64,000 nt of DNA from Octopus vulgaris. Its lineage: Eukaryota. A model generated the notes under the pieces. The model did not search any database. It worked only from the letters and a program-made list of their open reading frames with translations, and was not told the origin of the DNA. Position numbers and translations under genes: made by a program. The stretch is from assembly GCA_951406725.2 (NCBI GenBank), contig OX597826.1, positions 81,468,001-81,532,000 on the forward strand, in the 5' to 3' direction. Shown here in pieces: positions 2,540 to 50,519 of the stretch. How positions within the stretch are numbered: position 1 is the first letter of the stretch; the number at the start of each line of letters is the position of its first letter.

Positions 2540-3262
<723 letters not shown>

Positions 3263-3670: not shown

Positions 3671-5177
3671 ATTTTTAAACGACCATATAATTTAATTCTA
3701 ATAATGTACTTTGGAATCAATTAATGCAGTGTGAAAGGAGTTTTCTTATTATTTATCCATATCTCCCTCTCCCAAATATAAGATTATGCTTGTGTGTGTA
3801 CTTGTATGTGCATGCTTGCACACACACACACACAAATGCACACAAGCTTAGCTGTTTGGTTAAACATTTCCGTTCCTAACCATGTGGTCTTGGGTTCAAT
3901 CTGCCAGATGGTTGGTTGAGGTGAAGAGTTGATACGACTTGCTTTACTCAGTCACAGTTATATGCTCAGAGCATAAACCAGTTCAAAGATTGCCTTAGCC
4001 ACATCACACTAAAATGTTCTGTTGATAATGACCCTTTTCTCTGAACTCTGATTATTTTTTATCGTCTATTTGAAAAGGGGAATTATTTTAGAATCGTTAA
4101 ACAGCCTCTGTAAATTGATACAGTATCTTTTTTACTTGCTTTTATTCATTGACATCACCTTACTAATTTCAATTAACTACTTACCTGCATGACTCAAAAG
4201 TTTTTGCAAACATCTTATTTGTACATATTGCAATGATTTCACTAAATCTCCATTCTCTTTTATTCCTATGAATTGACCAGACTAAATTTGGGACTATATG
4301 AAAATAATTCAATCTTTAAAGAAACATGTCAAGCTTGGGTGCTGAATAAATTTCGGTAAACATTGTTTGGTACCTGAAGTCATCCATAACACTATCTGCA
4401 ACATTTATTTGACCACACCCTTTTAATCACCCTAATCCCAAAACCCTTAGAATTTCTTACACAAATTTTGTATTAAGAAAATTTCTACAACATGTACACT
4501 GTCAACTTCAGTTTCAAATCTTGTCAATAACATGCGAGTCTGACCCAACCACGGGGCGACATGATCTGGCCACTACTTTCGACCGACACTACTATGCTGA
4601 CTATGAAATTCAACCCCAGCAGAATTTGGACTCAGAAGACAGATGAGATGTCACTTAACATTTTGCACAGTGTTCTAATGGTTCTGCCTGTGCGCCACCA
4701 TAATAAGACTAAATATTATGAATAGTTTTCCCTCCCTGTGTTGATTCCAGTGGTGGCCACCCAGGATCCATTAGCTGTGGTGGTCTCCTGTGTTGATGGG
4801 GATGGCCACGACTCTGGAATTGATGGAGCCAGGTCAGCTGTCACACAATCTTTTTTCATACCATACATTAAAAAGATTATTGCTCAGCTGCAGCCCTTGT
4901 GATGGCTTCTAGATAGGGCAGGATAATAACACAACACACACATACAAAAAAAAAATAGAAACCTAAATAAAAGGATTTGAGCTTTCAGTCCCTCACATAT
5001 CTCAGAAAGCAGGAAAGGTTCTGCCTTAATAAAGGCTTCAGAGAGATAATTTTCAACCTAGACTGCAAACATGTTCATTGATTCTACTCTCTGCTTCTTT
5101 CATTGTTAATTTCTGAGCCTCAGTTGTGCAAATGCAGTAAAAAATCCTCAATTTTATTATTTTTCCTTTATTTCTAG

Positions 5178-5277
5178 GCAAGCTGTTCTTATTGCTGCCC
5201 TTGTGAAAACCGGGGTCATAACCGAGAAGACATCATGGGGATATTATTCTGTAAAAATGGTTGCTAGTGGTCTTCAG
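5178..5277 (+). CDS. TMEM184C: TMEM184C-like exon (QAVLIAALVKTGVITEKTSWGYYSVKMVASGLQ)
   Basis: tttctAG acceptor and GTA donor. Completes the split Trp codon from the previous exon and ends in ..GLQ. Confidence 0.92.
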
Positions 5278-5942
5278 GTACTGTACTTTAAATTGTGTTT
5301 TTTGTATACTCCTGTTCTTCTTTAGCTCCCAGGTTAGACATGGCTGATAGGCTGAGGATCCAAAATATTCCAAGAATATTCCCACACCTCTTTTCTTTTA
5401 GATGTGGTGTATTTGGGACCACTTTTTCCTTCCATTCATTTTAGAGACAACGGGATGTGATTTGGATAGCAATTTGGTATCAGTTGTTGATATTGGGGTT
5501 ACCTCAAGATACTGATCCTTACAGAGGGGATCACAAGGGACTGACAGGATTATTGATTCTCTGTGCTTGAGAAGACCCACCCAACAAAACTGATGTCCTA
5601 TGAGTATTCTGTCCCCTCCACCATTCCCCTAACTTCACATATTCCTCTTCTCTCTTTCTGTGTACCACGAATTTCCTCCTCCCTGTTATTCTCCCCCCCC
5701 CTACACTGTTTCACCAATCACCTTTGTACGCCTTCAGTTATCTCTTGTCCCTGCCACATTTCACTCTGTTCCCTTAAACATCTCATCTACTTTCTTCCTC
5801 CCATGTATGTCATCATGCCCCACCCACCATAGCCACCCTTATATACTCCTACATATCCCTCCTTCCCACTCCCACACCTTGCATGTCATCCCTGTCCCCT
5901 ACCTTCTGATCTATCCTTCCTCAGCCACTTCTATCTTTCACC

Positions 5943-6110
5943 TTACGTTCTGGGTTCAAATTCCGCCGAGGTCGACTTGGCCTTTCATCCTTTCGGGGTC
6001 TATAAATAAAGTACCAGTTTCGCACTGGGGTTGATGTAATTGACTTAATCCCTTTGTCTGTCCTTGTTTGTCCCCTCTATGTTTAGCCCCTTGTGGGCAG
6101 TAAAGAAATA
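5943..6110 (+). mobile_element. 5'-truncated tRNA-derived SINE (family A)
   Basis: B-box gttcaaatt, conserved body, tail ccccttgtgggcagtaaagaaata. TSD tatctttcacc at 5932-5942 and 6111-6121. Confidence 0.9.
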
Positions 6111-6448
6111 TATCTTTCACCATATACCCTCTCCATACAGATATTTCCCATCAACCTTACCTCATCTTTACCCTCATCTCTAACCATCTGTTAGTCTCCC
6201 CCCCATCACACACTGAAGAACACACTCTTTCCTTCCCTCTTCTACACTCACCTCCTCTCCACTGAGATTGACCCCCAAGCACTGCATCTCTGTCACCTTT
6301 GCCACTACTCCTCCTCCTCCCTACATAATGTGTGGTAGCCATGTCTCCTCTCTGTACCAAGACACCCTCTGTCTTACCGCTTTGGTATAAAGCCATCTTC
6401 CTGTCTCAAATACTTCACATTGTCTAGTAGTAGGAGCTTTTCCTTGTT

Positions 6449-6487
<39 letters not shown>

Positions 6488-7613
6488 GCAAGTCACATGG
6501 CAACCTCACTAATGCTGGTGGCCCCAAAATAGCATCCTGTACACACTGAAAAATAGTTGGCATTAGGAAGGGAACCCAGTCACAGAAACCTTGCCACTGC
6601 TGACACTGGAGCTTGGCATAGCCTTGTCATTTGTCACATCCTGTCAAAGCATCTAACCCATATATTAGCATAAAAACAGACATTAAATGATGATAATGAT
6701 GATGATGGTTGTTAATTTAATGATAATTATTGTTATAGTATTGTTTTTAATTGTTGTTTACCTAATGATCAAGCAATCTATGATCTAAAACTGTGATCAT
6801 CACGTTTATCCAATGTTTCATTTTTCTTTCAAGACAGCAGTTTGATTTCAGGGATATTTGGCAGCTATTTCTAGCAGGTCTAACAGCTATATAGAGGTTC
6901 TCTCATTAATCTATTCATATTAAACGAACAAAAATATCAAGCTGGACACGATCCCTGTCTAAAAACCAATAAAATCTTCAGAGACTCTTTGAATTGTCAC
7001 CAGACTATCTGTGCTGGAATTTTGCTGCAGTTAATTTGCAGTTAATAAGAATTAGATGGGAAAAAAAACTTTTCTTATGGACATCTTATCAATCTGTTGC
7101 AGGTAACATTCCTTGATCCTGCATATTCGGGGTACTGGACAGGTAACAATCAAATAAATAAAGGCTAATTATTGAAAGGTTACCCTACTTCATTGTTGAG
7201 TGATTAGTAATAAGTAGAGCATCGGGCATTATAGTTGAAGAAATGTCAAGTTAGTAAGTAGGAAGGGCCTGATATGGCTGGGTGTTTAGTGGTAAGAATA
7301 AAATCTTATTTTACAGGTGAGTTGGTTAATTGCTGGAAGATTATCAGCTTCACAGTTGGATAATTACTGGTATGAACAACATCCTGTTCATAGTTAAGTG
7401 GTTGGTCAGAGAAAAGACATTGGGCTGTGAAACCTACTGTTTTTATCAAATCTTCTTATGCAAGCATGGACAAATATATTTACGACAAAACAAGACACGT
7501 CACTGAATAGATCTAATAAACACCATATTGTTTTCCTTCCCCTCTTTCTTCTCTCTCTCTCGCTCTCTCTCTTTTGCATTTTCTTTTTCAATTTCCTTTT
7601 CTCTTTCTTTCAG

Positions 7614-7788
7614 GACTTCTGTATCTGCATTGAAATGTTTCTAGCAGCCGTAGCACATTATTTCTCTTTCTCACACAAACCATTTATCGACATGACTGTG
7701 GACCATGCCAACTGCTGTACATCATTCATGTCCATGTGGGATATTTCTGATGTCCGAGATGATATTATTGAGCATGTCAGAGTTGTAG
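7614..7788 (+). CDS. TMEM184C: TMEM184C-like exon (DFCICIEMFLAAVAHYFSFSHKPF...SFMSMWDISDVRDDIIEHVRVVG)
   Basis: Long pyrimidine tract with CAG acceptor, GT at 7789. The ICIEMFLAA.AH..SFS and MWD.SD.RDDI motifs are typical of TMEM184C. Confidence 0.93.
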
Positions 7789-8509
7789 GTTCGTAATTTT
7801 TCTTCCCTTTGCAGCCAGGATTTTCAATCAATTTCTTGCTTAGATTCAAAGTCAATTCTGGAAGTAGAGTTGTAATGATGTACCTTGCTTGTTGAATGCA
7901 AACCACAGGCTGTAATAGTAAGGTTTGAACTCATGACCATGTGACCAGCAGTAAGCCTCTTAATTCACAGACATGGTGCCTTAAATAACGACTTATAATA
8001 ATATAGAGATCAAGGTCACAAATGATAGAGAAAATGAACCGTAGTCTTTATTTCGTTGAACCCTGTAAAGAGAAAAAGATAATGTCAATTCCAGCCGAAT
8101 TTGATCCCAGATACAAAAGAACTAAATATTGTATGGCATTTATGATTCTCTGCTTCATCAAATCCATCGTCCACTGCTTCAAATACAAACTAGCATGGGG
8201 AACTCCATGTGATTACTCAGCCTTCTAGAAATAGCAGCAAAATCTTAATCCTTCTCACTCCTTACTTGTATTCCCTACATACAGTAAAATGACCGGATGG
8301 CCATGGTTGGAATACTTTGATCAAATATTGAAATAGCATTAAGCTAGAGCAAAAACTACAACAATTGGCTCAAATGAAAATAAAATGGTATTTGTAGAGG
8401 GTTTGAAATTAGGAGCAAAATATGGAATGAAATGAGTCACTTTTTGTTCATGAAATGAATGATGGGGTTCATTGGGGTCGGGACATACACAGGATGAGAT
8501 TAAATACAT

Positions 8510-8940
8510 TTTGCGTCGCCTTACTGGCACTCAAGCCCCGTGCTAGTTGGGTATTAAGAGCTAGTAGGGTATTAAGAGCCCCATCTGAGCGTGATCGTTG
8601 CTAGAGCGGCTATCTGGCCTCCGTGTTGGTGGCATGTAAAAGACACCATTCGAGTGTGATCATTACCAACGTCGCCTTACTGGCACCTGTGCCGGTGGCA
8701 TGTGTAAAAGATTTGAGCGAGGTCATTGCCAGAACCGCCTGACTGGCCCCCGTGCCAGTGGCATGTAAAAAGCACCCACTACACTCTTGGAGTGGTTGGA
8801 GTTAGGAAGGGCATCCAGCTGTAGAAACTGCCAAATCAAGATTGAAGCCTGGTGCAGCCATCTGGTTCACCAGCCCTCAGTCATTCGTCCAACCCATGCC
8901 AGCATGGAAAACGGATGTTAAACGATGATGATGATGATGA
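8510..8940 (+). mobile_element. RTE-tailed SINE or non-autonomous element (family B) with internal ~60-bp tandem units
   Basis: Repeated tggcacgtaaaaagcacc units and a tail ending ...ccatgccagcatggaaaacggatgttaaacgatgatgatg. Confidence 0.85.
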
Positions 8941-9856
8941 ATAATGATTGTGACTATAATAATGAGGTTGTTGTGTGGCTGCAACGTCGGTTGTGATTGA
9001 AGCAAAGCTGTTCTCAGTTACAGGATGTGGAAGACTACATTATCTAGTGCACCCTCTCATTGTTTCTTTGAGATGGTGGATGTGATTTGAGGGAGATTTG
9101 GCTACAATTTGTAACAGGTCAGGCAACCTTGTAACAGCTCCATTTTGGAAATTGTTGATAATGGTCATAAAAAAAAATCAATATAAATTGTTATAGTAAA
9201 GTACATAGATTATAAGTGGTTAAGCTACAAAAGTATTATTATTATAAAGATTATATAATATTAGTTGTAGTTGTCATAATAATGTTTATTATAAGGATTA
9301 GGATTCTAATTGATGGAAATCCTAATAAATTTTGCAGGTAGGAATTAGTTGATTAAATCACCTTCAGTATTTGAATGATTCTTCATTTAATTAACTCCAC
9401 AAAGATGAAAAGCTGGGATTTGAACTCACAGTATGAAGAGTCAAACCCTGTGGATGCAAAACAAAGTTCACCTTGGTCAGATTCGAAAGCCAAAGCTGTC
9501 AGGCATTTTGCTTTGATGATTCTGCCGTTCCATTAGCTTATCAATAATAATTCTTTCTCATTTTTGGCTCAAGGATGGCTCAAATCTGAACGGATGGGCA
9601 AAGATAATTACACCAACCCCACTACTTGACTGGTTCTTATTGTACCCCCCCCTCACTTTCCCCAAAGGATGAAAAGTAAATTCAGTCTTGGGAGAATTTT
9701 AATTCAGACTATAGAGCTGGAAGAAATGTTGCTAAGCATTTTGTCCTGTGTTCTAATTAAACTGCCCTCTCCTCATCACGTTCCTAATAAAAATAATAAT
9801 CAGAATAACATCTGTTGAATAACAGCAATAATAATTTTGGTACGTTTCTTCCGCAG

Positions 9857-10326
9857 GTGGTGGAGTTGGTCGCACTCTTCGTGGTTTTAGTTCAATCAGA
9901 AAGAGTGAACGCACACCTCTTCTGCAAGAAAAATCTCCGTCTTTGTCCGCTTCAAAAGACTCCAAACATACGGCAAGCGAATTCCAGTCGTCCTGTGAAC
10001 ATGGAGCATCTAACTATCAACAATCGGTGTGCAGTGACACTGGAGATGCCAACAGCATTGCAGATCTTGAATCGTCACAGTTCACTGGTTCGCAGCGGCA
10101 CCAGTCTTATGATTGGAGCATGAACAATTTCTATGAAGCCAGCATCGAGTCATCGGCAACGACGAATTTCGAAGGTTACGAGAGAACCGAAACTCTGGCA
10201 GTTGGCTCAACTGAAGGACTTGATACAGAACATTCCGATCCTATTGTGACAAACACTGAAGATTGTTCAGAGACAGAATATCAGAAAGAATATGATGTTC
10301 ACAAACAAAATAATGTAGACATTTAA
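9857..10326 (+). CDS. TMEM184C: TMEM184C-like terminal coding exon (Ser/Thr/acidic C-terminal tail) ending in TAA
   Basis: ccgcAG acceptor. Phase 1 puts it in frame with ORF 9943..10326. Contains ERTPLL. Confidence 0.85.
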
Positions 10327-10923: not shown

Positions 10924-10958
<35 letters not shown>

Positions 10959-10963
<5 letters not shown>

Positions 10964-11163
10964 AGAAAAAAGAGGCAGTCAGAATTTTGGATAATCCTTT
11001 ATTAGTGCTTTCGTTTGTTTTTTGAATTCATCAAGACAGAATCAAAATGGTAACAGAACATTTCATTTTTACCATTTTGATTTTGTCTTGATCTGTTCAA
11101 AAAACAAATGAAAGCGCTAATAAAGGATTATCCAAAATTGTGACGGCCTCCTTTTTCTCAATA
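10959..11163. repeat. Head-to-head inverted repeat (~95-bp arms, 15-bp spacer); each arm has a hammerhead-like motif
   Basis: 10959-11053 is the reverse complement of 11069-11163. Left arm (-) reads TTGATGA...GAAA-GCAC-TA; right arm has GAAA-GCGC-TA. Confidence 0.8.
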
Positions 11164-11399
11164 TACAATATCTGTACACAAATTCAAACACACTCTCTCC
11201 CTCTCTCTCTCTCTATATATATGGTAAACAAATAAGAATGGATAGCTCAAAACATCAATGTATTTCAGTAGTGTGGTTCCTTTCTTAATAATGCATCATC
11301 ATCGTTTAACATCCGTTTTCCATGCTAGCATAAATACATGATATATTTTCTTGTTGCTGTATATATACATATATATTTATATTTGCCTTTATATATATA

Positions 11400-16640: not shown

Positions 16641-16683
<43 letters not shown>

Positions 16684-16684
<1 letters not shown>

Positions 16685-16822
16685 CTAAGTCTCTCTAAAG
16701 GAGACTACGGCAGCGGTACTGGATATTAATAGTTATCGCCAAGCTAATATGGCAGTCCATAAATATAGGACGAAAGCTGCCGCTGATTAACTCCAAGAGA
16801 CCATCGCCTTTAGCTAGCTATG
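16684..16822 (-). repeat. Truncated copy of dispersed family D (also 27130-27434 and 36525-36835)
   Basis: Shares aaggagactacggcagcggtactggatattaatagttatcgccaagct with those copies. Confidence 0.8.
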
Positions 16823-20158: not shown

Positions 20159-20183
20159 CATATTTAATTAATATCGTGTTAAA

Positions 20184-20587
20184 AGGTGGCGAGCTGGCAG
20201 AGTCGTTAGCACGTCGGGCGAAATGCTTAGCGGTATTTCGTCTGCGTTACGTTGTGAGTTCAAATTCCGCCGAGGTCGACTTTGCTTTCATCCTTTCGGG
20301 GTCGATTAAATAAGTACCAGTTACGCACTGGGGTCGATGTAATCGTCTTGATACCCTATGTCTGTCCTTGTTTGTCCCCTCTGTGTTTGGCCCTTGTGGG
20401 TAATAGGGAAATGGGTATTTCGTCTGCTGTTACGTTCTGAGTTCAAATTCCGCCGAGGTTGACTTTGCCGTTCATCCTTTCGGGGTCGATTAAATAAGTA
20501 CCAGTTACGCACTGGGGTCGATATAATTGACTTAATTCATTTGTCTGTCCTCTCTGTGTTTAGTCCCTTGTGGGTAGTAAAGGAATA
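20184..20587 (+). mobile_element. Family A tRNA-SINE, tandem dimer (full-length plus 5'-truncated unit)
   Basis: A-box-like ggcgagctggcaga and B-box gttcaaatt. One 19-bp TSD, taattaatatcgtgttaaa (20165-20183 and 20588-20606), flanks both units. Confidence 0.92.
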
Positions 20588-21489
20588 TAATTAATATCGT
20601 GTTAAATAAGTACGAGATAATTAAGGAAATATAGTATACACCCTGCTGGTATAATGGTTCTCTTTTTCCGAACCGCTAGAGTACGGGGACGTAAACACAC
20701 CACTATCGTCTGTCAAGCGATGTTGGGAGACAAAAACTGTTATTCAGAGTTTCACGGACGATTGTGATGAAAACACATTTTTCATCACAACTCTCCGACG
20801 AATGTGAAACTGAGTAACATTTCGTTTGATAATTTGCAGTGTTAATAAGTGTGTGTGTGTTCACGCGCCCGGTTGCATGGGATGAACAGAATTTATTGGG
20901 GCACATTTTGCATGGCCAGACGCCATTCCTGTTGCTATGCCACACCCGTTTCCAAGCTGGAAAATATCTCCCCATCACCAGACATACGTACAGTAGTGTT
21001 TCTATATATGAACATGATCCTTTTTCGGATCTCTTTTTGTTGACTCAATTGTTTGTTACGTGAATGTTTGAAATTTATATAAAATAAAGGGATAATCTGT
21101 TCCCACCAACGCTCAAACTCCATAGAAAAAGAATGAAAGGATGATGTCTTTATGGCCATCCATCACTAGCAAATACACAAACATCTATGAGTGTGTGTGT
21201 GTGTGTGTGTGCGTGCGTGCGTGCATTTTCTGTTTGTTTTAACATGTCGATGCTTATTGTAAATAAACTGCTTCTTAACATAAACAGCATAGTTTTGTCT
21301 CCATGAAAGAACATTTGGCTTGTTCGTGGTTTGAACAAGATGAGGAAAGACCTTGGCCTGTTAAATAAAATGGCATCTCTAATTTGAAAACTGCACAAAT
21401 GAAGATCATCTGGCTGTAAATTGCCTCTGCTAATGAAATATGTCCTGATCCATGCTAGCATTGAAAAACAGACGTTAAACGAATGAACG

Positions 21490-22318: not shown

Positions 22319-22581
22319 TATAATCAAAATAAGCAACAAGTATATCTGAGGTAATGTGGTACGATCGTTTCATGCTACTTCATTTTATTAAACACTAAGT
22401 ATTACATCAGTTTTAAAAAGATAAGAATGTGCATTGTCCGTTTGATTGGAAAATTTCTATGAGTGGTTGAAGACTGCTCAACATTTTAAAACTGATGTAA
22501 TACTTACAGTGTTTAATAAAATGAAGTAGCATGAAACGATCGTACCACATTACCTCGGATATACTTGTTGCTTATTTTGAT

Positions 22582-22585
<4 letters not shown>
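22319..22585. repeat. Head-to-head inverted repeat (~100-bp arms) with a hammerhead at 22463-22548 (+)
   Basis: Arms 22319-22418 and 22484-22585. Motif reads GTGG-TTGAAGA-CTGCT..AGCAT-GAAA-CGATCG-TA-CCAC. Confidence 0.8.
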
Positions 22586-25666: not shown

Positions 25667-25897
25667 GGGCGGCGAGCTGGCAGAATCGTTAGTACGCCGG
25701 GCGAAATGCTTAGCGGTATTTCGTCTGCTGTTATGTTCTGAGTTCAAATTCCACCGAGGTCGACTTTGCCTTCATCCTTTCGGGGTCGATTAAATAAGTA
25801 CCAGTTACGCACTGGGGTCAATGTAATTGATTTAATCCCTTTGTCTGTCCTTGTTTGTCCCCTCTGTGTTTAACCCCTTGTGGGTAGTAAAGAAATA
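25667..25897 (+). mobile_element. Full-length family A tRNA-SINE
   Basis: Same head, body and tail as the other family A copies. Confidence 0.92.
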
Positions 25898-27068
25898 TAT
25901 ATGAGAATACACATGCACATACACGCGCGTGCACACATCTTTGTATCTCTGTCCACATCTCCGTCTATGTGTATGAATGAGCAGGTGTAAGCCGAGAGAT
26001 TAAATGAATTGCCATTTATGAACTGAAGTCATCAAAGATTGAAACCATGCGCTATTCACACGACAACTGAATTTATAAGTTTCGCCAGAATGGTTAACCG
26101 CCATCACTGAGTTCTGATCAAGTGACTGAAGTCGTGGTTCGTCTTAGCAATGGAACGGAGATTCTTGTTGAAAGTTGAACAAGAAACAAATGGAACTGTA
26201 TTTCCATGAACCGGAAACGACTTACTGTCCCACAATGCATTACGTTGATTAAAATCTTCTGTCAATGGAATTAATTAAATCATTCAATGGATTAATTAAA
26301 TCAGTGAATTAATGTAATCAAGTTAATAATGGCACATTGTTGAAATAAAATTACCATATTAAAAGAATAGTTTAGACATCCGTTAACGGAACATTGAAGG
26401 TTGGGATAACAAGTTTAGAACTGTTTAATTTTGTTTGTTTTATTTGTTGACTACATCGTTATATGTGTTAAATAATTGTTTTTTAGTCCACAAAGAAGGA
26501 CGATATGCTTAGTTTTTTCTTTTCTTTTTCTAGGAACTCTGTGATAAAGTATTTACAACAGTGAAAATGTTATGAATACTTTACGCAAATATAAGTGCTC
26601 AGTTTGTTTTACTGGAGGACGTAATTTTCTTATGCCGAGTTTGAAGAAAATGAGTTGATACCGTAAAATTTGAAAGGTATTTTGGGATGGCGGATGAAAA
26701 TGGAAGATCAAACTGCAACACATCACATTCTTAAGATAAAGGCTTAGATAAAGAGTATGGCTCCTAAATACAAGAGACAAGAATGTCATGACTGCAACAC
26801 GATTCATCACAGTTTCTCAACTGCAACCGATTTGGGAAGGCATGAAAACATCAAGAACTTCGAAAGGATTTGGCCAGTGTTGGCCCAGGCCATGTCTAAC
26901 TTAATAGCACCACTTGACGAAGTCTTTCAATTCAGGATTTGGGCACCAAGGCCCATTCGAGAAGAGAGTTATTGTTTGCGAAGACATATCCGGGTGTGGG
27001 TGGTTTGTCAGGGACTGCTTGAAGGAATTTGTCCAAAGACTTCTTGAATTTTGTGTAGTCAGTTTCTG

Positions 27069-27120
<52 letters not shown>

Positions 27121-27129
27121 GAAATATTA

Positions 27130-27434
27130 AAATTACTAAGTCTCTATAAAAGAGATTACGGCAGCGTTTACTGGAAATTAATTGTTATCGCCATATTAAT
27201 ATGGCATTCTTATAGATATAAGAATAATCGCTGCCGCTGGTCAGCTCCATGAGGCCACCGCCTTAAGATAGCTATTGATACACGATCTGTATCCATTATA
27301 ACCTTCGAACAAGGGAGGTCAGCCGCTTCACACTGCCAGTCCGACAGCTACAGACGCGTTTCGGGGTATTGCCCCTTGTCAATGTAGCGCAGTCAGACCG
27401 CAGGTGTCGCCACTGACGTCTCTGTTCGAAGGTT
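27130..27434 (-). mobile_element. Family D element ending in a ~135-nt rod-like hairpin that contains a hammerhead (PLE-terminus or retrozyme-like)
   Basis: Homologous to 16684 and 36525. Hairpin arms aaccttcgaaca and tgttcgaaggtt. Confidence 0.75.
27347..27388 (-). ncRNA. Type I hammerhead ribozyme with U3-A8 compensatory core
   Basis: GCTACA-TTGACAA-GGGG-CAATA-CCCC-GAAA-CGCG-TC-TGTAGC; all three helices pair perfectly. Confidence 0.85.
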
Positions 27435-28199
27435 TATATTTACCTAGTTTCAGTTCATAAATGGCAATTCACTCCATCTCTCAGCTTACACGTTCACATT
27501 CATACACATACACATATATGTAGATGTGTACATAAATACAAACATGTGTGCACGCGCGCGTACGTGTGTGTTTGTATGCGCATGCATGCGTGCGTGAATT
27601 CTCATATATATGATTACTCTAAATACATAGGAATGGATTCGTTGGAAAATTTGGACCTATATATATATAACAAAGTGGAGTTGTAGGGTACCGCACGAGT
27701 GGAATTATATACGAAAGAAGGTTTGAAAATGCAATTTAAAAGATGTTTATTTACTTTACCGGTTTCACTCTTTGGAAAAAGATTGTCAAAAGTAACATGG
27801 AGAAGTTTGGTTGCGTTAATTATTGGTTGTTACAAATTGCTACATTACATATATACAGTCTTTGGTAACAGGGACATGTTAAGGACATAAAAAATTTCAA
27901 CAAGTTCCTTAAAATATTGGGCACAAAAGATTACTTCATAAATAATCATTCTCAAGGACATGCTTAAGATAGTTTCCAGAAGGAATTGATATTGGTATTG
28001 GTATTGTATCTGTATATTCAATCATGCACAGAATATTGGTTGACACAGAGTACTACAATCCATATAAATATACATTCTTTGGTGACAAGAGCATGTTGAG
28101 AATATAAAAGAGTTTAACAATATTCTGTGCATGTTTGAATATACAAAAACAATACCTCTTCAATGTGAATGTAGGTAATGGATGCAGTCTTTTTTCTGC

Positions 28200-28780: not shown

Positions 28781-28829
28781 TTGTCTAGGACCATACATGG
28801 TTCTGGGTTCAGTCCCACTGTGTGGTGAC

Positions 28830-30775
28830 TTGGAAGGACAGCATATGTTCAAAAAGATTTCCAAGGAGGTTCCTACAAGAAACTCAGACAGGTGCTGATG
28901 GGTATCCATCATACAGACGCAGAAAACCAGAAGGCGGAGGTTTCACAGCAACTATCGGACAGCACGATATTGATAATAGATGGATTGTTCCATACTGCCC
29001 ACTCCTGTCAAAGACTTTCAATGCCCACATCAACGTTGAGTTTTGCAACTCCGTTAAATCCATCAAGTACGTTTGCAAATATGTAAACAAGGGTTCTGAC
29101 GCTGCAATGTTTGGACTTCAACAACAATACTGCCATGATGTGGTGACGCTTTATCAGGTGGGACGGTACATAAGTAGCAACGAGGCTTTCTGGCGCATCT
29201 TTGGCTTTCCAATTCACCAACGACACCCCGCCATTCAACAGCTTGCAGTGCACCTGGAAAATGGTCAAAGAGTGTACTTCACCGATGATAATGCTTTTCT
29301 GTTGACAGATGAACCAAGGGATAGTACACTCACTGCATTCTTCAAGCTTTGTCAAGTGGATCCATTCGCTCAAACCTTGCTGCATCCACAGATTCCATCG
29401 TGCTACACTTGGAATGGAAAAAAATGGGCCCCACGGAAAGCAGGTCAAAATGTTCATGGGTACCCTAGCATTAAGTTTCACACTTGCCTTGGGCGAGTAT
29501 ACACAGTGCATCCCACTCAACAAGAGTGCTTCTACCTTCGTCTACTACTGCATGAGGTCAGAGGGCCAACGTATTTCCAGGCCCTAAAAACCGTTCATGG
29601 ACATGTCTGCACAACATACAGAGAAGCCTGCTATCGACAAGGTCTGTTAGAAGATGGTGCACAATGGGATGCAAGCTCAACTGCTCTATCCTGACATGGA
29701 GGGTATCAGCAATGAAATCTATAACAAAACACTCATTGACATTGAAGACAGAATTGCTAAACTGGGTGGAAATGAATTGTCCATATATGGCCTGCCACAA
29801 GCATTCAGGTCAGGGTCAAATAGCCTTCCCACTGCTGTCATTCGTGAAACAACCTACGACACTCAAGCGCTTTCAGAGTACATTGTTGAAAATGAGCCTA
29901 AATTACTTCCGGATCAGCTGCAGGCCTACAGAACTATTCTTAACAGTGTACGCCAACGCGAGGGACGAATTTTCTTCCTCGATGCTCCTGGAGGGACAGG
30001 AAAAACATTTATTACAAAGCTTCTCCTTGCAGAAGTTAGGTAGCATCAGGACATTGCAGTAGCTGTAGCCTCCTCTGGCATTGCAGCTACTTTGTTACCT
30101 GGTGGCAGGACAGCACACTCAACTTTTAAACTCCCTCTCAATTTAGCAGCATCCGAAATGCCTTCATGCAACATCAACAAAAGCTCAGATCAGGGACAAG
30201 TACTTAAAATGTGTCATCTAATTGTCTGGGATGAGTGCACTATGGCTTACAAGGGAGTTTTGGAAGCATTAGATAGAGCCCTGAAAGACACCCGAGACTG
30301 TCAGGCTGCAATGGGAGGTGTAACGCTTCTGTTGTCAGGTGATTTCAGGCAAACTTCCTGTCGTTCCGAAAGGCACTAGAGCTGATGAAGTTCAAGCATG
30401 CCTAAAGTCCTCTACCCTGTGGCATCATGTTACAATCTTTAGTCTCACCACTAACATGAGAGCTCAGCTACACGGCGACAAAATGTCCACAAAGTTTGCA
30501 CAGGACATTTTGACACTTGATGAAGGCAAGATGCCTCTCGATGCTGCAGGACAAATGGAAGTGTGGTCATTTCCCTCTGTTGTTAATTCTGTAGATGACC
30601 TCAAAAACAAAGTCTTTCCCAACTTCACACAAAACTACCAAAATTACAATTGGCTGTGTGAAAGAGCAATATTAGCTCCAAAAACGTCGCTGTTAACAAA
30701 ATTAATCAACAGCTAATGCATTCTCTTCCCAGCACTATACACACTTACAAGTCTGTTGATACAATTGCAAAGCGA
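28830..30775 (+). pseudogene. Helitron RepHel, first part (stops, frameshifts and a probable internal deletion near 29675)
   Basis: ORFs 28822, 29654, 30092, 30339 and the start of 30716 join into one colinear protein. Confidence 0.9.
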
Positions 30776-30779
30776 GACA

Positions 30780-31925
30780 CTGTGATTGTGACGGTGGTGG
30801 TGGTGGTGGTGGTGGTGGTGGTGGTCATGGTTGTGGTGGTTATGGTGGTAGTGGTGATGGTGGTGGTGGTGGTGGTGGTCATGGTGGGAGTGGTGGTGGT
30901 GGTGTTTGTGGCAGAGTTGTCCTTTGATTGTGAAGCTGTCGTCTGGGTTCTTCCAATTTTTCTTTGTGTCGGTGGCGGAGTTGGCCTCCATGCTCGCACC
31001 TGCACCTGTGTTCCTTCTCCCCTTCCTCCCTCCTTCGTGAAGCTGTGGGGAAGGCAGGGTAGGAAAATCAACGTCGTAAGCATTGTCAAGGAGACCAGTG
31101 ACCTTTTCCCCGACGACTTCATGGCTTTCAAGTCGCCAAAACAGAAATGGTTAAGAAAGCCCGAAAACAAATTTACAAAATGGGGGAAATACGCCACACA
31201 GGGAAGGTTTCCCGTGCAAAGAATTTGAAGAACCGAATGCTTTAGTTGTTGCACAACTTTTACATAAAAAATATTATCCAAACACAAACTTTTGAAGGCA
31301 ATATTGTATGGCGATGGTACTTGTGAAATATGGTAATAGATTTAGTAGCCAAAAGGAGAGAGCAGAGGTATAGTATGGTGGTGGTGGTGTTGGTAGCGGT
31401 GAAAATAGCAACGGCGGAGGTGGTAGTGGCGGTAGTGGTGGCGGTGGTGGTGGTGGTGGCGATGTTGGCGTCCATGCTCGCACCTGCACCTGCACCTGTT
31501 TTGCTCCTTCCCTCCTTCATGAAGCTGTGGGGAAGGCAGAGTAGGGAAATCAACGTCGTAAGCGTTGTCAAGGAGACCAGCCTTCTTTTAGAACAACGAC
31601 TTCATGGCTTTGAAGTCGCCAAAACAGAAATGGCTAAGAAAGCCGAAAGCAAATTCTAAAAAATCGAGAAATACGCCACACAGGGCAGGTTTCCCGTGCA
31701 AAGAATTTGAACAACCGAATGTTTTAGTTGTTGCACAACTTTTACATTAAAAATATTATCCGAACACAAACTTTTGAAGTTTAGTATTGTCTTTTTTAAT
31801 TTTTAACGCTTGTGCAAAATTGTATTTGTTTTTGGTGGTAGTGTTGGTGTCACTTGTAGTGGTTGAGGTTGTAGTGGTGTTGTTGTTGGCAGTTGGCAGA
31901 TGGCAAAACGACGATATCTTTGCTG

Positions 31926-31957
<32 letters not shown>

Positions 31958-31965
31958 GGTGGTGG
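30780..31965. repeat. ~1.2-kb insert in the helicase: (GGT)n tracts alternating with two direct copies of a ~310-bp unit (about 30987-31297 and 31471-31779)
   Basis: Direct repeat seen. The helicase stops at YKSVDTI and resumes at [13 protein letters not shown]. Confidence 0.85.
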
Positions 31966-32432
31966 TGGAATTTCTCAATTCACTGGAGCCTCCTGGACTA
32001 CCTCCATACATATTAGCACTTAAAGTTGGAACTCCTGTAATGCTACCCCGCAATCTGGAACCACCAAGACTTTGCAATGGAACACGACTGGTGATAAAGA
32101 AAATGATGTCACACGTTATCGAGGCGATCATTCTTTCTGGATGTGGAAAAGGTGATGACGTCTTTATTCCAAGAATTCCTCTTACTCCATCAGGAGCAGA
32201 AATTCCACTTACATTCAGAAGACTGCAATTCCCCCTTCGTGTCAGCTTTGCCATGTCCATTAACAAATCTCAGGGTCAAACCCTCTCTGTAGCTGGTCTT
32301 CTCTTGGAAGAGCCCTGCTTCTCGCATGAGCAACTGTATGTTGGCTGCTCAAGAGTAGGAACCAAAAGAAACCTTTTTGTATATGCTCCACAAGGAAAAT
32401 CAAGGAACATTGTTTACAACAAGGTGTTATAA
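31965..32432 (+). pseudogene. Helitron PIF1 helicase C-terminus
   Basis: ORF 31893..32432 carries the C-terminal helicase motifs. Confidence 0.92.
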
Positions 32433-32661: not shown

Positions 32662-32668
<7 letters not shown>

Positions 32669-33372
32669 ACAATAATCGTCAGCTGTAATTCATAGACATT
32701 TAAGGCATCACTACGCGCGTTTCCCCATTCACATGTCTCTTGAGATCACAGGCCGTATTCATGAGATGATTACATTGTAGACCGTAGTAATCGAAGGCAT
32801 CGGTAAGAGCATCCTCACGGGTTCATTTCTTCAGGCGATATAGCATTAATGGATGTTTACCAGACAATGAATTCCTAGTAAATTCGTACAGCTGACGGCT
32901 GTAGTGGCCGAACCGATTGACCTGTTTGCTTTGGGATTAATTGAAGAAAGTCAGGCTTTAAACGAGATCGAACAAAGGAATGTACGATCCATCATTGTCA
33001 TCTGCAGACTGAATAGCAAAATAATCATAAATCACCACAAATACCCCCTTCCCCATATAACTACCATTCCTTGCTCTCCTTGCATCGCTGCTCCTCCCCA
33101 CCAAATACTCATAGAAATACCCCCATAAGTCTTCCAACCTGGTCAAAAGGAATCAACATCCCTCTGGTAAACATCCTTTAATGTTATATCTCCTGAAGAA
33201 ATGAATTCATGAAGATGATCTCGCCAATGTCTTCGGATACTATGGAATACGCTGTAATCATCTCAGGAATACGGACTGTGATCTTAAGAGACATGTGATT
33301 TACGGAAACGCGCGTAGCGATGCATTAAATGTTTGTAAATTCCAGCCAAGGACTATTGTTATTGTTACTATA
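32662..33372. repeat. Head-to-head inverted repeat (~200-bp diverged arms, ~300-bp spacer); both arms carry split hammerhead cores
   Basis: Left arm (-, 32707-32839) reads ATCGC-CTGAAGA...GAAA-CGCGCG-TA-GTGAT. Right arm (+, 33188-33321) reads ATCTC-CTGAAGA...GAAA-CGCGCG-TA-GCGAT. Confidence 0.75.
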
Positions 33373-34983: not shown

Positions 34984-35295
34984 ATTCTGTTGTGTCTGGG
35001 GAGAGTCATTTTCTTTTTGTGCCTTATAATCTAACACACTCACCGGTAAAATTTCCACTTTTTAAAAAATTTTTATTGTCCTAAAATTTTCGTGGCGTCT
35101 TGCAACCTTTTCAATAGTTTTGCAAGACGCAACGAAAATTTTAGGAAAATAAAAGTAAAAAAAAATGGAAATTTTACCCGTGAGTGTGTTAAATTATAAA
35201 GCACAAAAGAAAATGACTCTCCCCAGACACAACAGAATATGCTTCAACACACGAACTCATATAAAGAATCTTGCAAACCAAATCCAAAAACGAAA
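34984..35295. repeat. Head-to-head inverted repeat with a U3-A8 hammerhead at 35081-35117 (-)
   Basis: CTA-TTGAAAA-G-GTTGC-AAGAC-GCCAC-GAAA-AT-TT-TAG. The right arm reads GCAAC, which restores helix II. Confidence 0.8.
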
Positions 35296-36200: not shown

Positions 36201-36524
36201 ACGCATGGTAAATAGGAGACCACAACTGAGAACAGACAATACAGTCATAAGTGCAATGCTTTCGATTCTGAGATTTATCGATCGTCACGACAACAACCAG
36301 AACAGCAAAAGGAAATTTGCTAGCAATGTATGTAGCACTATAAAAAACAAACAAGATTTCTACATCCGGTACAACTTTAATCGTAAGTCTGCTTAATCAG
36401 GATACTTGGAAACAAACAAGAGGTGGGCTTATGATCAAGAATATTCTAGGCGTTACATCACGTCATTTTTCTTCTTCAGTTTGTCATTTTTTTAAAAGAC
36501 GATATCAGTGTATAGAAATACTAA

Positions 36525-36835
36525 TATTTCTAAATTTTTCTAAAGGAGACCACGGCAGCGGTACTGGATATCAATAGTTATCGCCAAGCTAACATGGCAG
36601 TCCAGATAAATAGGACGGATGCTGTCGTTCATTAGCTCCAAGAGGCCATCGGCTCTAGATATCTATGTAACACACAAACCCTGACCTCCCCTGTTCGAAG
36701 GTTGTAATGGACACAGGTTTGTTTGTCACATAACTAACTAGAGGTGATGGCCTATTGGAGCTAATCAACGGCAGCATTCGTCCTATTTTTCTGGACTGCC
36801 GTGTTAGCTTGGCGATAACTATTAATATCAGTGTA
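36525..36835. repeat. Family D inverted pair with the hammerhead hairpin missing at the junction
   Basis: 36682-36712 is the reverse complement of about 27292-27322, and the two arms mirror each other. Confidence 0.8.
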
Positions 36836-37387
36836 ACTTGATGGAAATTTGGCTGCTACTTTTAAAAGATGGAAAAGATTGTCGAAGTTGAAATGACTGG
36901 AGAAACTAGAGAATCGGATGAGTTGTTGGAACGTCTTCGTTGTGGCTTTCGGTATTTTGAGTTCAAATCTCGCCGAAGTCATCTTTGTGCTTCATCCTTT
37001 CAGGATCGATAAATAATGCATCAATGCAGAAATAAAATAGTTTCTTTCTTTCTCTTACGAAGAAGAAGAAGAAGAAGAAGTAATCGGCTGTGGTTATTTC
37101 TTGAGAAGGATGAACTCCGCTACATCACGGCATGGCTTCTATGACTCTATCAAGTGTTGAGGCCTCAAGTCATGACCATGTTAGACACCCGTAATAGAGA
37201 GAGAGAGGTGGAAGATCGAAACCGGATCACATAATTTACAGTCTCATCACATTTAAATTCCTTAACAAAAGAAACCCTAATTTCTGTTGTCATTTCTCAT
37301 AAATCGTCAAAAGAAAATAACATTTTGATAACTTTCATCTTCCATATTTCTTTTGCTAGGATCGATTTGGATTCTACCCCAGTTACC

Positions 37388-42800: not shown

Positions 42801-43379
42801 AAAATAAGAGGAAATAGCAGGGCCTCGGGATAAGGAAAGAAGGCTTAATAAATCAGAATCCTACCATTTTGTAGTGTAAAGCGTGAAGCCGATGGGCGAA
42901 TGAAAAAGAACTAGAAATTGGTGGGTTAATCTTTCTTTAGGGGTACCAGAGTGTATGAATAATAAGAAAATTGAACTAATACTCAAGTATAACTGGATTC
43001 GCCAATAAGTCTAGAAAAAGAATAGTTCTTATGATTTCGTAAATAATGCTAATTAATATTTATCCAAAAACATACCCCAAAAGTTGTTACAATATTTACT
43101 GATATATTCTAAAGACCGACCTGTTGTTGTCCGTAATGGAATTGAATAAAGTCCAGGCATCCCTATAATTGGTCAGCTGACTTTTAAACCAAAGGCAAGC
43201 TCAGGCCGTTATAGGGGTAGATGTAAATAAAGAAGTAAATAAAAAAGTAAAAGTGTTGGGGAGTAGCCTATGTTATAAGTGCCCAAGGCCGCTTGTGTCA
43301 TTATAAACCAATCCAACATGAAAACAACCCTAAACAACAAGCAGGTGTATTAGTTTGACGCTCGGGAAAGTGAGAAAGT

Positions 43380-43416
43380 CCTTTACGTTTCGAGCCTACG
43401 CTCTTCGACAGAAAGG
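43380..43416 (-). ncRNA. Minimal hammerhead with U6 core (CUGUCGA); same family as 50551 and 50775
   Basis: CCTTT-CTGTCGA-A-GAGC-GTAG-GCTC-GAAA-CG-TA-AAGG. Confidence 0.65.
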
Positions 43417-44346
43417 AACACGAGAAAATAAACAGAGAGAATAAAAAAAACTTGTGGATTCAGCGACCAATTTATAGCCACAGTTTTGCACCTAAGTTGC
43501 TTAAATTTTACTGCCTTATGTTTTTCAATTTAGAATGTAGTAATTTATAGGATTTTTAAAATTTTTTTTTCAAAATAATAAATTTGAGATGTCTAAGTTA
43601 TCAGACCTATCGCATTCTGTATTGATGTTCTCTAATCATTTGTGTTTTTGTATGAAAACTCTCTTTGTATGGAAACATACTTAACATTTTATCTCCATAT
43701 GATCAGTATATACTTATCTACTAGGATGACTGAACGCTACCATTTAATTTGAGTTACTTGCAACATTAATTTTTCCTGTTTTTAATTTTAAAAATAAGAA
43801 TCCTATTGAATTTTTTACTAAATTATCAGCTAAGTAAATTTCAACAGAACTTATAAATATTTGTGCGCGTGAACGCACTTGAATATAGATAATTGTATAT
43901 ACATACAGGAAATTGTTTTTCTAATATGTATTTTCTTTGAAACAGAATAGATTTTGTAAATTAAAATCTTCGTTGTGAATGTGTTTGAATATCAATTTTC
44001 TTATTTGTTTTTTTCATTTTTCCTGTTTCGTTTCATATTTTTGTTATTTTTCAACGAATTCATTAATTTGTTTTTATTCAAAAGAAAAGCTAACTATTGC
44101 AACGGTTTTTCTTAGACATACGACTTTACTAATTCTCTATCGGATTTTTTGTAAAACGGGGTTTTAAGTCCCTTTATTTATATTACAATTTCAAGAGCAT
44201 CAATGTTTTGGGGGAAAAAATACTATTCTCTTTGTATTTTTTAAAGTACATTCTTCCTTCTGTTTGTATCTTTCTCACTACATTTTTTGAATTATTGAGT
44301 TTCTTTTCATTTAGCAGCAAACCTGACCTTCACAATTATATTTCTC

Positions 44347-47886: not shown

Positions 47887-48489
47887 ACATACATCTTTCA
47901 CTTTCTCCTCTCTTTTACTTTAAAACAAAGTAAATAAAAATTTCTTACGGAAATTAACGACTTGAAAATAATTAAAAAAAACATTAGAATATTGTCTGCC
48001 TAAAGAAAGCTAAAATATAAATACTGTACAAACAACTTACATTTTTGAAGTCACATTCAGTTAAAAATATTTCTAAATGATTAAAATATTGTGTGCGACA
48101 AAAAGTCGACGGTTTTTTTCTTAGCGCGAAGACTGTGTGTGTGTGTGTGTATGTCACAGATAGTGGACGTATGTTTGTGTTGACATTCATTATATGTGTA
48201 TTCTGTATGGGTGTGTTGACGTCACGGAAGCGATGTTCTTTTTTTTTTCGTTAAGAAATAACAAACAAAAATTGTGTTTACTCGTTTTCATTAATATATG
48301 GAGGCCCAAATGTTACAAAAATTTATTCTGCACTGTCGAAGCTAAATGTGAAAATAAATATGCAAAAAAAAAAACAAACAAGATGGAATATGCTATTTCT
48401 GAAATATTTCGGGTACAGACAAACATCCCAAGAGTTTTAGTATTACCAACATGTGTGTGTGACTGTCCATGTATGTATGTATATATATA

Positions 48490-48503
48490 TATATAGGTTA
48501 GTG

Positions 48504-48554
<51 letters not shown>

Positions 48555-48684
48555 TTAGGGTTATCTTGTATATATACACTTTAAAAAATTTATAACTTGC
48601 ATAACTGGACACTCAGGTATAGATTATTTTATAATATATACATATACCCATATATATATATATATAAATACATATAACCCTAAC

Positions 48685-48719
<35 letters not shown>

Positions 48720-48795
48720 CATATATATATATATATATATATGTATACATACATATATCCCTAACCCATATATATACATGGGTTAGGGTTATATG

Positions 48796-48834
<39 letters not shown>

Positions 48835-48910: not shown

Positions 48911-49540
48911 TGTATGTATATGTGCATACCTGCTCTTTTGTCTGTATATAAGTATCTAATGAGCGCATATACGTGTACATATGTGTGTGTGTACATGTAT
49001 ATAAGTATAGGTATATAAGAAAGTACACGTCTGTGTATGGGTATATTTATATATGCATGTATGTCTGCGTATTTATTTATATATATATATATATATGTAT
49101 TTGTATGTATATATGTGTGTATCTATGTATGTATAAACGTGTATGTATATGTGGCTGTATGGGTGTGTATGCGCACAAAGTATATGTATTGGTATGTAGA
49201 TTACAAAATAATTTGAGTACATATTTTTATATCTGTGTTGTTAGTCTATTTACGCCTGTTATTATCCATAAAATATCCAACTATATTAATTGTCTCCCCT
49301 ACATTACAACACATTTCTCCTGCTCCATTTTTTGGTTCGTTTTTCCTTTCCTTGAAAATCTACTCAATAATAATATAAACAATTATTTTGACAAACACAC
49401 GCACAAAAACCCCTTTTATACTAATCGCTCTAGATCGGATTATATAAGTTTATAACGTTAGTAATCCCCTTTAATTCGACCTTATTGCTTGTATAGTATT
49501 TATTTCCAAATTTTCTTATAAATATATTAATACTGTGAAA

Positions 49541-49773
49541 AGGCGGCGAGCTGGCAGAAACGTTAGCACGCGGGGCGAAATGCGTAACCGAAGTTCGTCT
49601 GCTGTTACGGTCTGAGTTCAAATTCCGCCGAGGTCGACTTTGCCTTTCATCCTTTCGAGGTCGATAAATTAAGTACCAGTTACGCACTGGGGTCGATGTA
49701 ATCGACTTAATCCGTTTGTCTGTCCTTGTTTGTCCCCTCTGTGTTTAGCCCCTTGTGGGTAGTAAAGAAATAG
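49541..49773 (+). mobile_element. Full-length family A tRNA-SINE
   Basis: 15-bp TSD atattaatactgtga at 49524-49538 and 49774-49788. Confidence 0.93.
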
Positions 49774-50382
49774 ATATTAATACTGTGACTAGATAATTAT
49801 TTATGACATATAACACTTATGTGTGTCTATGAATATTAGACCTGTTATTTACAATAAATACTTAAATTATACATTTCATAAACCTGAAATTATTCTTTAA
49901 TACTATAATTAACCTCTATTTTTTCTAAAAATATCTCAAGTCGAAAGGATACTTGACAGTGAATTAAAAACTAAATTTGTATTTGAAAATTCAGATACCT
50001 CCTTATTTGGTATTTCTCAACGTACATACAAATACAGCTTGACCAGTAATAAAATTCAGTTCAGGTGTTTTAAATCGACACACATATTGGATTACATAGA
50101 GAGAATGTCGGTTTTAAATATTACATATATTAGCACCCGCTTAATGTTTTTTCAGTCTTGGTTTAAATAGCTGTGGCTGCAAGAACGAATACAATAATCC
50201 TAAAATGATAGCTAAGAGAAAATATAGGTACTTCTAACGTCTTATTTTAGTTTTTATATCAGATAATCACGAGTACCAATATGACTATTAAGATTTTCTA
50301 TTTATGAATATCTGAGTCTTTTGTATGAAACAAATTGTATAGCAACATGAAAATAAGAATTATAATTCATTTTAACACCTAA

Positions 50383-50505: not shown

Positions 50506-50519
50506 GCTACTAAATCTTT

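What the first reader, a model, noticed from the sequence alone, without database searches (positions are those of the whole stretch)
27300..27434. Perfect hammerhead with U3-A8 compensatory core atop a viroid/retrozyme-like rod
Seen: core UUGACAA instead of CUGANGA, all helices perfect, GUC triplet. Helix I continues through four further paired segments (gtccgac/gtcagac, acactgc/gcaggtgt, aggtcag/ctgacgt, aaccttcgaaca/tgttcgaaggtt). Established: C3-G8 is a tertiary Watson-Crick pair, and swapping both bases can retain activity. Inference: the double change signals selection for catalysis. Caveat: C>T and G>A could also be decay.
Basis: partly seen in the sequence, partly recalled or inferred. 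Interest (0 to 1): 0.75.

Follow-up and report, generated by a model that had tools for sequence, protein, structure and literature searches.

The report
Variant-core hammerhead ribozyme repeat in octopus
This is one copy of an abundant octopus repeat that carries a hammerhead-ribozyme sequence in which the usual C–G core pair is replaced by U–A across most of the family, a swap already known in other organisms; it likely cuts itself as a dimer and likely spreads as a small protein-free retroelement, but neither was tested.

Summary
The motif is real but lies on the minus strand (27347-27388). It is a type I hammerhead with core UUGACAA, 6-bp helix I, 4-bp helix II, GUC triplet and the Schistosoma-type loop-loop residues, atop a 135-nt rod (z -7.9). 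'All helices perfect' is wrong: helix III is a palindromic hexamer with a 2-nt loop, and two copies are predicted to fold as a double hammerhead. The host is an Octopus. The rod belongs to a 340-nt non-coding dispersed repeat ending at (TA)n, with two truncated siblings in the window. In contigs from four public runs, position 7 varies (62-84% A in three runs). No variant is listed at U3 or A8. C3 is excluded above 3% in three runs; G8 is likely under about 9%. Two divergent contigs also keep U3 and A8. So U3-A8 is the family consensus, not decay. One low-depth contig suggests a ~360-nt head-to-tail unit. Best reading: a non-LTR retrozyme moved by a Penelope-like element, not a viroid. Natural U3-A8 cores are already published, including ~1,300 Schistosoma copies. 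Cleavage and circular RNA are untested.

The parts
27347..27388 (-). Type I hammerhead motif, helices I-III with core UUGACAA ... GAAA ... GUC
   Evidence: Descriptor scan, sole hit in the window; position map
27376..27382 (-). Core strand: U3 = 27382, N7 = 27378 (C here, A in most family depth), A8 = 27377, A9 = 27376
27363..27375 (-). Helix II (4 G-C pairs) with 5-nt loop 2 that begins with C and ends with A
   Evidence: loop motif compared with PMC2632901 passages
27354..27359 (-). Helix III: palindromic hexamer, unstable as a monomer, predicted to pair between two copies
   Evidence: the two-copy minimum-energy fold is the double hammerhead, -52.7 vs 2 x -23.7 kcal/mol
27352..27353 (-). 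Predicted cleavage site, 3' of C17 (27353)
   Evidence: Hammerhead numbering; not tested
27339..27398 (-). Extended domain I: internal loop 1 (U at 27346; U-G-C at 27391-27389) and 7-bp distal helix
   Evidence: the residues match the U1 / extrahelical pyrimidine / loop-2 3'-A motif
27300..27434 (-). 135-nt imperfect rod with the ribozyme at its tip
   Evidence: z -7.9; both arms covered by family contigs
27115..27454 (-). Whole repeat copy, about 340 nt, non-coding, likely 5'-truncated from a unit of about 360 nt
   Evidence: depth ends by 27460; one contig returns from 27454 to 27125; z -8.8; stops in all three minus frames
27070..27117 (.). (TA)n array at the element's fixed 3' end
16667..16821 (-). 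Sibling copy, 3' part only, next to (TA)n at 16642-16681; no ribozyme
   Evidence: 79% identity over 158 nt
36512..36829 (.). Sibling: 3' part plus an inverted copy that reaches the rod's 3' arm; no ribozyme
   Evidence: 74-75% identity; self-palindrome 36567-36829; alignment

Best explanation
This is a near-full, single copy of an abundant non-coding octopus repeat whose minus strand carries a type I hammerhead motif with a family-wide U3-A8 core; it is likely a non-LTR retrozyme that would self-cleave as a dimer and would be copied into (TA)n tracts by the enzyme of a Penelope-like element. Shown: the motif, the palindromic helix III, the rod, the fixed end at (TA)n, the truncated and inverted siblings, and the constancy of U3 and A8 beside a variable position 7. 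Inferred: tandem source arrays of a ~360-nt unit are transcribed. Two neighbouring ribozymes pair through their palindromes to build a stable helix III, with the loop 1-loop 2 contact supporting the weaker U-A core pair, and cut after GUC. The monomers are ligated to circles. A Penelope-like reverse transcriptase/endonuclease primes at a fixed internal site and copies uncut or circular template, giving 5'-truncated inserts that span the cleavage site. This solitary copy is predicted to cleave poorly by itself.
For: Canonical metazoan type I architecture as defined in PMC4209133: helix I 6 bp, helix II 4 bp, helix III 1-2 bp with a palindromic loop, all met. The three loop-loop residues of the Schistosoma motif are present. 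The two-copy minimum-energy fold equals the double hammerhead. Family variation: of 13 core positions only N7 has a listed variant (80, 62, 84, 0% in X1, X3, X9, X10). All A>G places are accounted for elsewhere in X1, X3 and X10, so C3 is under 3% there. Helix I changes keep pairing (A-U to G-U or G-C at 27385/27350; U-A to U-G at 27386/27349). Two divergent X10 contigs show core UUGAUAA. Helix III is again palindromic in one X10 contig (4-nt form) and in the X3 loose-end consensus (ACUAGU). Three insertions in 64 kb share one end, two of them directly at (TA)n, with variable other ends and one inversion; PMC8557442 describes these traits for Penelope-like insertions. One X10 contig returns from 27454 to 27125 through 32 letters, 10 of which match 27115-27124, implying a ~360-nt unit; mussel retrozymes are 350-390 bp. 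Summed depth does not fall on the 5' side of the cleavage site, as expected for uncut or religated templates.
Against: No cleavage, transcription or circle was shown. The head-to-tail joint rests on one contig of depth 2.2 with about 31 letters on its short side; no such joint was listed for X1, X3 or X9. No tandem array is in the window, so this locus fails the two-unit definition of an active retrozyme. One T>C place at >=3% in each of X1 and X3, and 7 T>C plus 2 A>G places in X9, are among 19 rows not shown, so a minority G8 (likely under 9%, inferred from the row ranking) is not excluded. Tallies are unlinked and limited to contigs >=80% alike, so a divergent C3-G8 sister family would be missed. 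The X1 consensus for the sister subfamily's helix III is not palindromic (agreement 0.8). Some distal-rod variants break pairs (27342 in 14-79%, 27340 in 0-49%). No Rfam hammerhead model matches, even at E<=10. The mobilising element was not found.
Confidence: 0.68

Rival explanations
1. It is the terminal (pseudo-LTR) fragment of an autonomous Penelope-like retrotransposon, 5'-truncated on insertion; the ribozyme belongs to the full element and no short RNA circle exists.
For: (TA)n target, fixed end, 5' truncation and inverted sibling are traits of such elements. U3-A8 was found in Schistosoma Cercyon elements. Summed depth 5' of helix I is about a tenth of that at the core, as truncation or divergent upstream sequences would give.
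Against: Penelope-type ribozymes are usually minimal: extra base after A9, long helix II, short helix I, no tertiary contacts. This one is canonical. There is no ORF in the copy and no RT ORF of >=120 aa beside it. The X10 contig leads from the 5' side back to the element's own 3' end. An 11-nt rod motif does not occur in the Naiad/Chlamys supplement, which holds two Octopus Naiad consensuses (line breaks could hide a match).
Confidence: 0.2
2. The family descends from a founder whose ribozyme was already dead or weak; U3 and A8 are shared by descent and the repeat spreads like a SINE without cleavage.
For: A burst from one master copy fixes any letters. In the lizard Penelope-like element PAc, ribozyme mutants did not affect insertion in vitro (PMC11167929). 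In this copy C7 allows an inactive pairing of G5-A6-C7 with the GUC triplet (P about 0.6).
Against: Variation is concentrated at the one free core position and at pair-preserving helix positions, and contigs too divergent to align through the core still keep U3, A8 and G5-A6. U3-A8 is reported as active in vitro.
Confidence: 0.08
3. It is an integrated copy of a viroid-like RNA that replicates RNA-to-RNA.
For: Rod-like fold on both strands; a unit of viroid size.
Against: A ribozyme is found in one polarity only. It is free at the rod tip, as in animal retrozymes, whereas viroid and plant retrozyme circles block it by pairing. The sequence is an abundant genomic repeat with retrotransposition marks. 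No exact pattern match in IMG/VR.
Confidence: 0.03
4. A chance match, or independent C>T and G>A decay of one canonical copy.
For: Both changes are transitions; a looser descriptor is met in 9 of 200 shuffles.
Against: 0 of 200 shuffles at the observed helix I length. U3 and A8 are the majority state in all four runs laid.
Confidence: 0.01

Closest known systems
Metazoan non-LTR retrozymes (coral, mussel, axolotl/newt satellite 2; PMC7229834; bioRxiv 10.64898/2026.07.22.740005)
   Same: Canonical type I hammerhead, non-coding, self-paired, unit of likely ~360 nt, solitary monomers dispersed in the genome. The weak palindromic helix III resembles axolotl HHR_Amex1, which cuts poorly as a monomer and well as a dimer.
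   Different: U3-A8 core, not mentioned for retrozymes in the parts read (the supplement of PMC7229834 could not be read). Octopus host. Tandem arrays and circular RNA are not shown here.
U3-A8 minimal hammerheads of Schistosoma mansoni Cercyon Penelope-like elements (PMC4209133)
   Same: Same core covariation, present family-wide (~1,300 hits), mostly single motifs, dimer-type.
   Different: Those are described with the minimal hammerheads of pseudo-LTRs (long helix II, short helix I, extra base after A9). This one has 6+4 bp helices, no extra base, and the loop-loop residues.
Natural U3-A8 hammerhead variants of Perreault et al. 2011 (PMC3088659)
   Same: Same compensatory core pair, stated to be active in vitro.
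   Different: Reported as rare examples; here it is the majority state of an abundant animal repeat.
Schistosoma Sm-alpha full-length hammerhead (via PMC2632901)
   Same: Internal loop 1 with a 5' U and a last-position pyrimidine; loop 2 starts with C and ends with A.
   Different: Loop 1 is 1x3 and loop 2 is 5 nt here, against 4x4 and 6 nt; core U3-A8 against C3-G8.

Membership tests
Canonical type I hammerhead ribozyme | Conserved core with a Watson-Crick pair between positions 3 and 8, G12-A13-A14, and a U-H site | tested here: met
   U3-A8 in place of C3-G8, all other core positions standard; the variant is accepted as natural
Canonical type I hammerhead ribozyme | Helix I 6 bp, helix II 4 bp, helix III 1-2 bp with a palindromic 2-4 nt loop | tested here: met
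   against the definition
Canonical type I hammerhead ribozyme | Loop 1-loop 2 contact residues (5' U and extrahelical pyrimidine of loop 1, 3' A of loop 2) | tested here: met
   U 27346, C 27389, A 27367; sequence level only
Canonical type I hammerhead ribozyme | Match to an Rfam hammerhead covariance model | tested here: not met
   0 matches at gathering score in the window and 0 at E<=10 in 27100-27500; a library test, not a defining biochemical trait
Canonical type I hammerhead ribozyme | Site-specific self-cleavage | not testable with these tools
   Needs an in vitro assay
Non-LTR retrozyme | Non-coding repeat of 150-450 bp with a canonical type I hammerhead | tested here: met
   340-nt copy with stops in all three minus-strand frames; repeated
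Non-LTR retrozyme | Head-to-tail tandem units somewhere in the genome | tested here: inconclusive
   None in the window; one low-depth contig with a head-to-tail joint; no genome held
Non-LTR retrozyme | Highly self-paired RNA with the ribozyme free to fold | tested here: met
   Element z -8.8 over 100 shuffles; ribozyme at the rod tip; prediction only
Non-LTR retrozyme | Expressed as linear and circular monomer RNA | not testable with these tools
   Only contigs were available; they cannot show strand, ends or circularity
Penelope-like element pseudo-LTR | Linked RT + GIY-YIG ORF | tested here: inconclusive
   None next to this copy; other copies could not be examined
Penelope-like element pseudo-LTR | Minimal hammerhead (extra base after A9, long helix II, short helix I) | tested here: not met
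Penelope-like element pseudo-LTR | Fixed 3' end, 5' truncation, inverted adjacent copy, (TA)n target | tested here: met
   3 of 3 window insertions share the end, 2 of 3 abut a (TA)n array, 1 of 3 is inverted (traits)
Hammerhead viroid / viroid-like replicon | Ribozymes in both polarities (recalled feature) | tested here: not met
   Only a minus-strand motif
Hammerhead viroid / viroid-like replicon | RNA-to-RNA replication without a genomic template | not testable with these tools
   The sequence is a genomic repeat

The most novel reading that the evidence does not exclude
Octopus genomes hold a very abundant, unannotated retrozyme family that has fixed a U3-A8 catalytic core inside a fully tertiary-stabilised hammerhead, is invisible to Rfam and to CUGANGA descriptors, and is expressed as a ~360-nt circular RNA. 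Together with a second repeat in this window that has U at core position 6, this means variant-core ribozyme repeats are systematically undercounted in animal genomes.
Probability: 0.35. Interest if true: 0.52.

Novelty: new member of a known kind. Interest (0 to 1): 0.34.

Why it matters
The core swap is known, so this is not a new ribozyme chemistry. It matters in three modest ways. First, it extends hammerhead-bearing retroelements to an octopus repeat that standard models miss (Rfam gave nothing). Second, thousands of diverged natural copies (a rough inference) would be a ready-made mutational scan of a U3-A8 hammerhead with tertiary contacts. Third, a canonical ribozyme inside an element with Penelope-type insertion marks supports the proposed link between animal retrozymes and Penelope-like elements.

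Tried and rejected
No whole genome is held, so copies could not be aligned directly. Rfam: 0 hits. Degenerate pattern in JGI metagenomes: 1 match, inside a bacterial protein-coding ORF, with no helix I and no GC in helix III; rejected as chance. IMG/VR: 0 matches. Expression: no RNA holder listed; X9 and X10 are only guessed to be RNA and are not used as evidence of transcription. One X3 'opposite strands' joint (27234/27373) and one 36-nt skip, each a single contig, were not interpreted. Summed contig depth is not used as a copy number. An ORF start downstream of the ribozyme, as in PAc, was looked for and not found. A link to published Octopus Naiad elements: the rod motif was absent from that supplement, and the two hits of a 9-nt helix III motif lie in other species' entries in unrelated context. 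Earlier scan findings: nothing in 3 look-ups. No paper on octopus hammerheads or retrozymes appeared in the searches (listings only). U3-A8 wording was searched; the A6U wording. The library lacks most subscription papers and Repbase/Dfam, so absence is weak. The supplement of PMC7229834 and file 1 of PMC4209133 could not be read and may list octopus or U3-A8 examples. Quantitative rates for U3-A8 mutants were not retrieved.

Full report
Observation. A descriptor scan finds one type I motif in the window, at 27347-27388: helix I 6 bp, core UUGACAA, helix II 4 G-C pairs with a 5-nt loop, GAAA, a CGCG stretch, UC. U3 is 27382, A8 27377, C17 27353. With the core limited to C3-G8 or U3-A8, 9 of 200 shuffled windows give a hit at helix I >=5 bp and 0 of 200 at >=6 bp. 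The 135-nt rod folds at -71.6 kcal/mol, z -7.9. The 43-61-nt ribozyme alone has only z -1.8 to -2.4, so the strong score comes from the rod. Three of the four outer segments are imperfect and the outermost 12 bp are perfect. Helix III is not perfect: it is a palindromic hexamer that cannot close in a monomer model (P < 1e-5). The monomer instead pairs G5-A6-C7 with the GUC triplet (P 0.6). Two copies fold best as a double hammerhead with an intermolecular helix III and an open core (-52.7 against 2 x -23.7 kcal/mol). I ran no control with a non-palindromic loop, so this shows feasibility, not specificity. Rfam finds nothing, even at E<=10.

Host and context. An ORF at 9835-10323 is 98% identical to an Octopus vulgaris protein, whose exons map to 176-10323; the element lies about 17 kb past the last coding exon. 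The rod is part of a longer repeat. 27118-27322 matches 16667-16821 (79%) and both arms of a palindrome at 36512-36829 (74-75%), the latter reaching the rod's 3' arm. All three insertions end at the same point, two directly at (TA)n arrays; the other ends vary and one copy is inverted. Neither sibling reaches the ribozyme (1 match). The 340-nt copy has stops in all three minus-strand frames and no long ORF beside it. It folds at z -8.8 over 100 shuffles.

Is U3-A8 fixed? No genome was held. I laid contigs of 4 of the 24 runs listed (four studies) on 27125-27470 at >=80% likeness, listing differences from 3%. 1718, 1264, 47 and 8 contigs were laid. Of 59 variant rows 40 were printed. Among 13 core positions only N7 appears: C>A in 80, 62, 84 and 0% of depth. 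It lies 1 nt from A8 and 4 nt from U3, which shows that variants here can be seen. The per-run tallies of change types let hidden rows be bounded. Every A>G place in X1, X3 and X10 is a printed row elsewhere, so C3 is below 3% in those runs; X9 has 2 unprinted A>G places. For G8, X10 has no T>C place at all (but depth there is only 2-4), X1 and X3 each have 1 unprinted T>C place and X9 has 7. The lowest best share among printed rows is 8.7%, so G8 is probably below about 9% (inferred from the ranking). Two divergent X10 contigs, read from their loose ends, carry UUGAUAA with a changed helix I pair and, in one, a shorter palindromic helix III. So position 7 is C, A or U while 3 and 8 stay U and A. 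Helix I variants keep pairing; some distal-rod variants (27340, 27342) do not, and tallies are unlinked. A sister subfamily seen in loose ends has a palindromic helix III in the X3 consensus but not in the X1 consensus (agreement 0.8 each). A C3-G8 relative under 80% alike would not have been laid. Within these limits the decay caveat is rejected.

Unit and mechanism. Depth ends by 27460. One X10 contig (depth 2.2; I take it to be record 13 from its depth and end) goes from 27454 back to 27125 through 32 letters, the last 10 of which equal 27115-27124. That implies a head-to-tail unit of about 360 nt, as a tandem array, a multimer or a circle; it is one contig at the limit of what counts as bridging, and the other three runs list no such joint. 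Summed depth is no lower 5' of the cleavage site than 3' of it, so most inserts span the site; their template would have been uncut, multimeric or religated (inference). Depth drops about tenfold 5' of helix I, from truncation or subfamily divergence. The most likely mechanism is that of animal retrozymes: tandem transcript, dimer-assisted cleavage, ligation to a circle, and copying by a Penelope-like enzyme at (TA)n. All of these steps are inferred from the literature and the anatomy.

Comparison with what is known. PMC4209133 (parts 1-2 of 4 read; 2 of 3 supplement files searched, no Octopus) defines the canonical metazoan type I motif met here and reports U3-A8 in ~1,300 Schistosoma Cercyon hammerheads. 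PMC3088659 (passages) reported natural U3-A8 covariation and notes it was already proven active in vitro. PMC2632901 (passages) gives the loop-loop motif; U 27346, C 27389 and the 3' A of loop 2 fit it, and 27390 is A in 23-84% of depth in three runs, as in the Schistosoma loop. PMC7229834 (parts 2-3 of 6, passages and discussion; supplement unreadable) places canonical type I motifs in 150-450-bp retrozymes (mussel 350-390 bp), shows that an axolotl motif with a palindromic helix III needs a dimer, and proposes Penelope-like elements as mobilisers. bioRxiv 10.64898/2026.07.22.740005 (parts 1-2 of 5) describes dispersed monomers and a Penelope-like origin. PMC8557442 (passages and supplement search) gives the (TA)n, truncation and inversion traits. 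PMC11167929 (passages) shows internal priming and that ribozyme mutants do not block insertion in vitro, which keeps the 'passenger ribozyme' rival alive. PMC6155905, PMC7151607 and PMC13282606 were seen as passages; the last, an O. vulgaris repeat annotation, does not use the word ribozyme in its main text.

Verdict. It works like a dimer-dependent type I hammerhead in a non-LTR retrozyme. Membership of the hammerhead class is met at sequence level; membership of the retrozymes is likely, but the tandem-array and circular-RNA criteria are inconclusive or untestable here. It is not a viroid by the features tested. The core swap is known; the octopus family with this core and full tertiary residues did not appear in my searches. 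New member of a known kind; interest 0.34.

Noticed in passing
window 43370-43430 (-), 50540-50600 (+), 50775-50835 (-): A second, unrelated repeat family with minimal-hammerhead architecture: extra A after position 9, 4-bp helix II, GAAA-CG-UA, 4-bp helix I. All 3 copies have U at core position 6 and differ at position 7; one also has G at 3 and one a disrupted helix II. Two lie in an inverted pair (50519-50841). Folding z only about -1. One search found no paper on such a core (listing only).
   Followed up: partly
window 32667-32864 and 33163-33361: Inverted pair (82% alike) beside a (TA)n array, each with GAAA followed by a CG palindrome and UA, like half a hammerhead core; no convincing helix I by eye.
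   Followed up: no
window 5943-6116, 20167-20596, 25668-25902, 36955-37016, 49526-49782, 52688-52926: Seven copies of a SINE-like repeat of up to ~240 bp, mostly 84-92% alike; the SINE label is recalled, not tested.
   Followed up: no
window 423-666, 10957-11165, 22319-22585, 34984-35238, 50383-50505: Several long imperfect palindromes, two of them abutting (TA)n arrays; likely inverted retroelement ends or MITEs.
   Followed up: no
window 28789-32432: Broken ORFs with motifs recalled as Helitron Rep/helicase, interrupted by GGT repeats; not scanned against a library.
   Followed up: no
window 176-10323 (+): Five coding exons of a TMEM184C-like host gene, 86-100% identical to an Octopus vulgaris protein.
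   Followed up: yes
window 48472-48832: TA-rich palindromic array with interspersed telomere-like TTAGGG/CCCTAA units.
   Followed up: no
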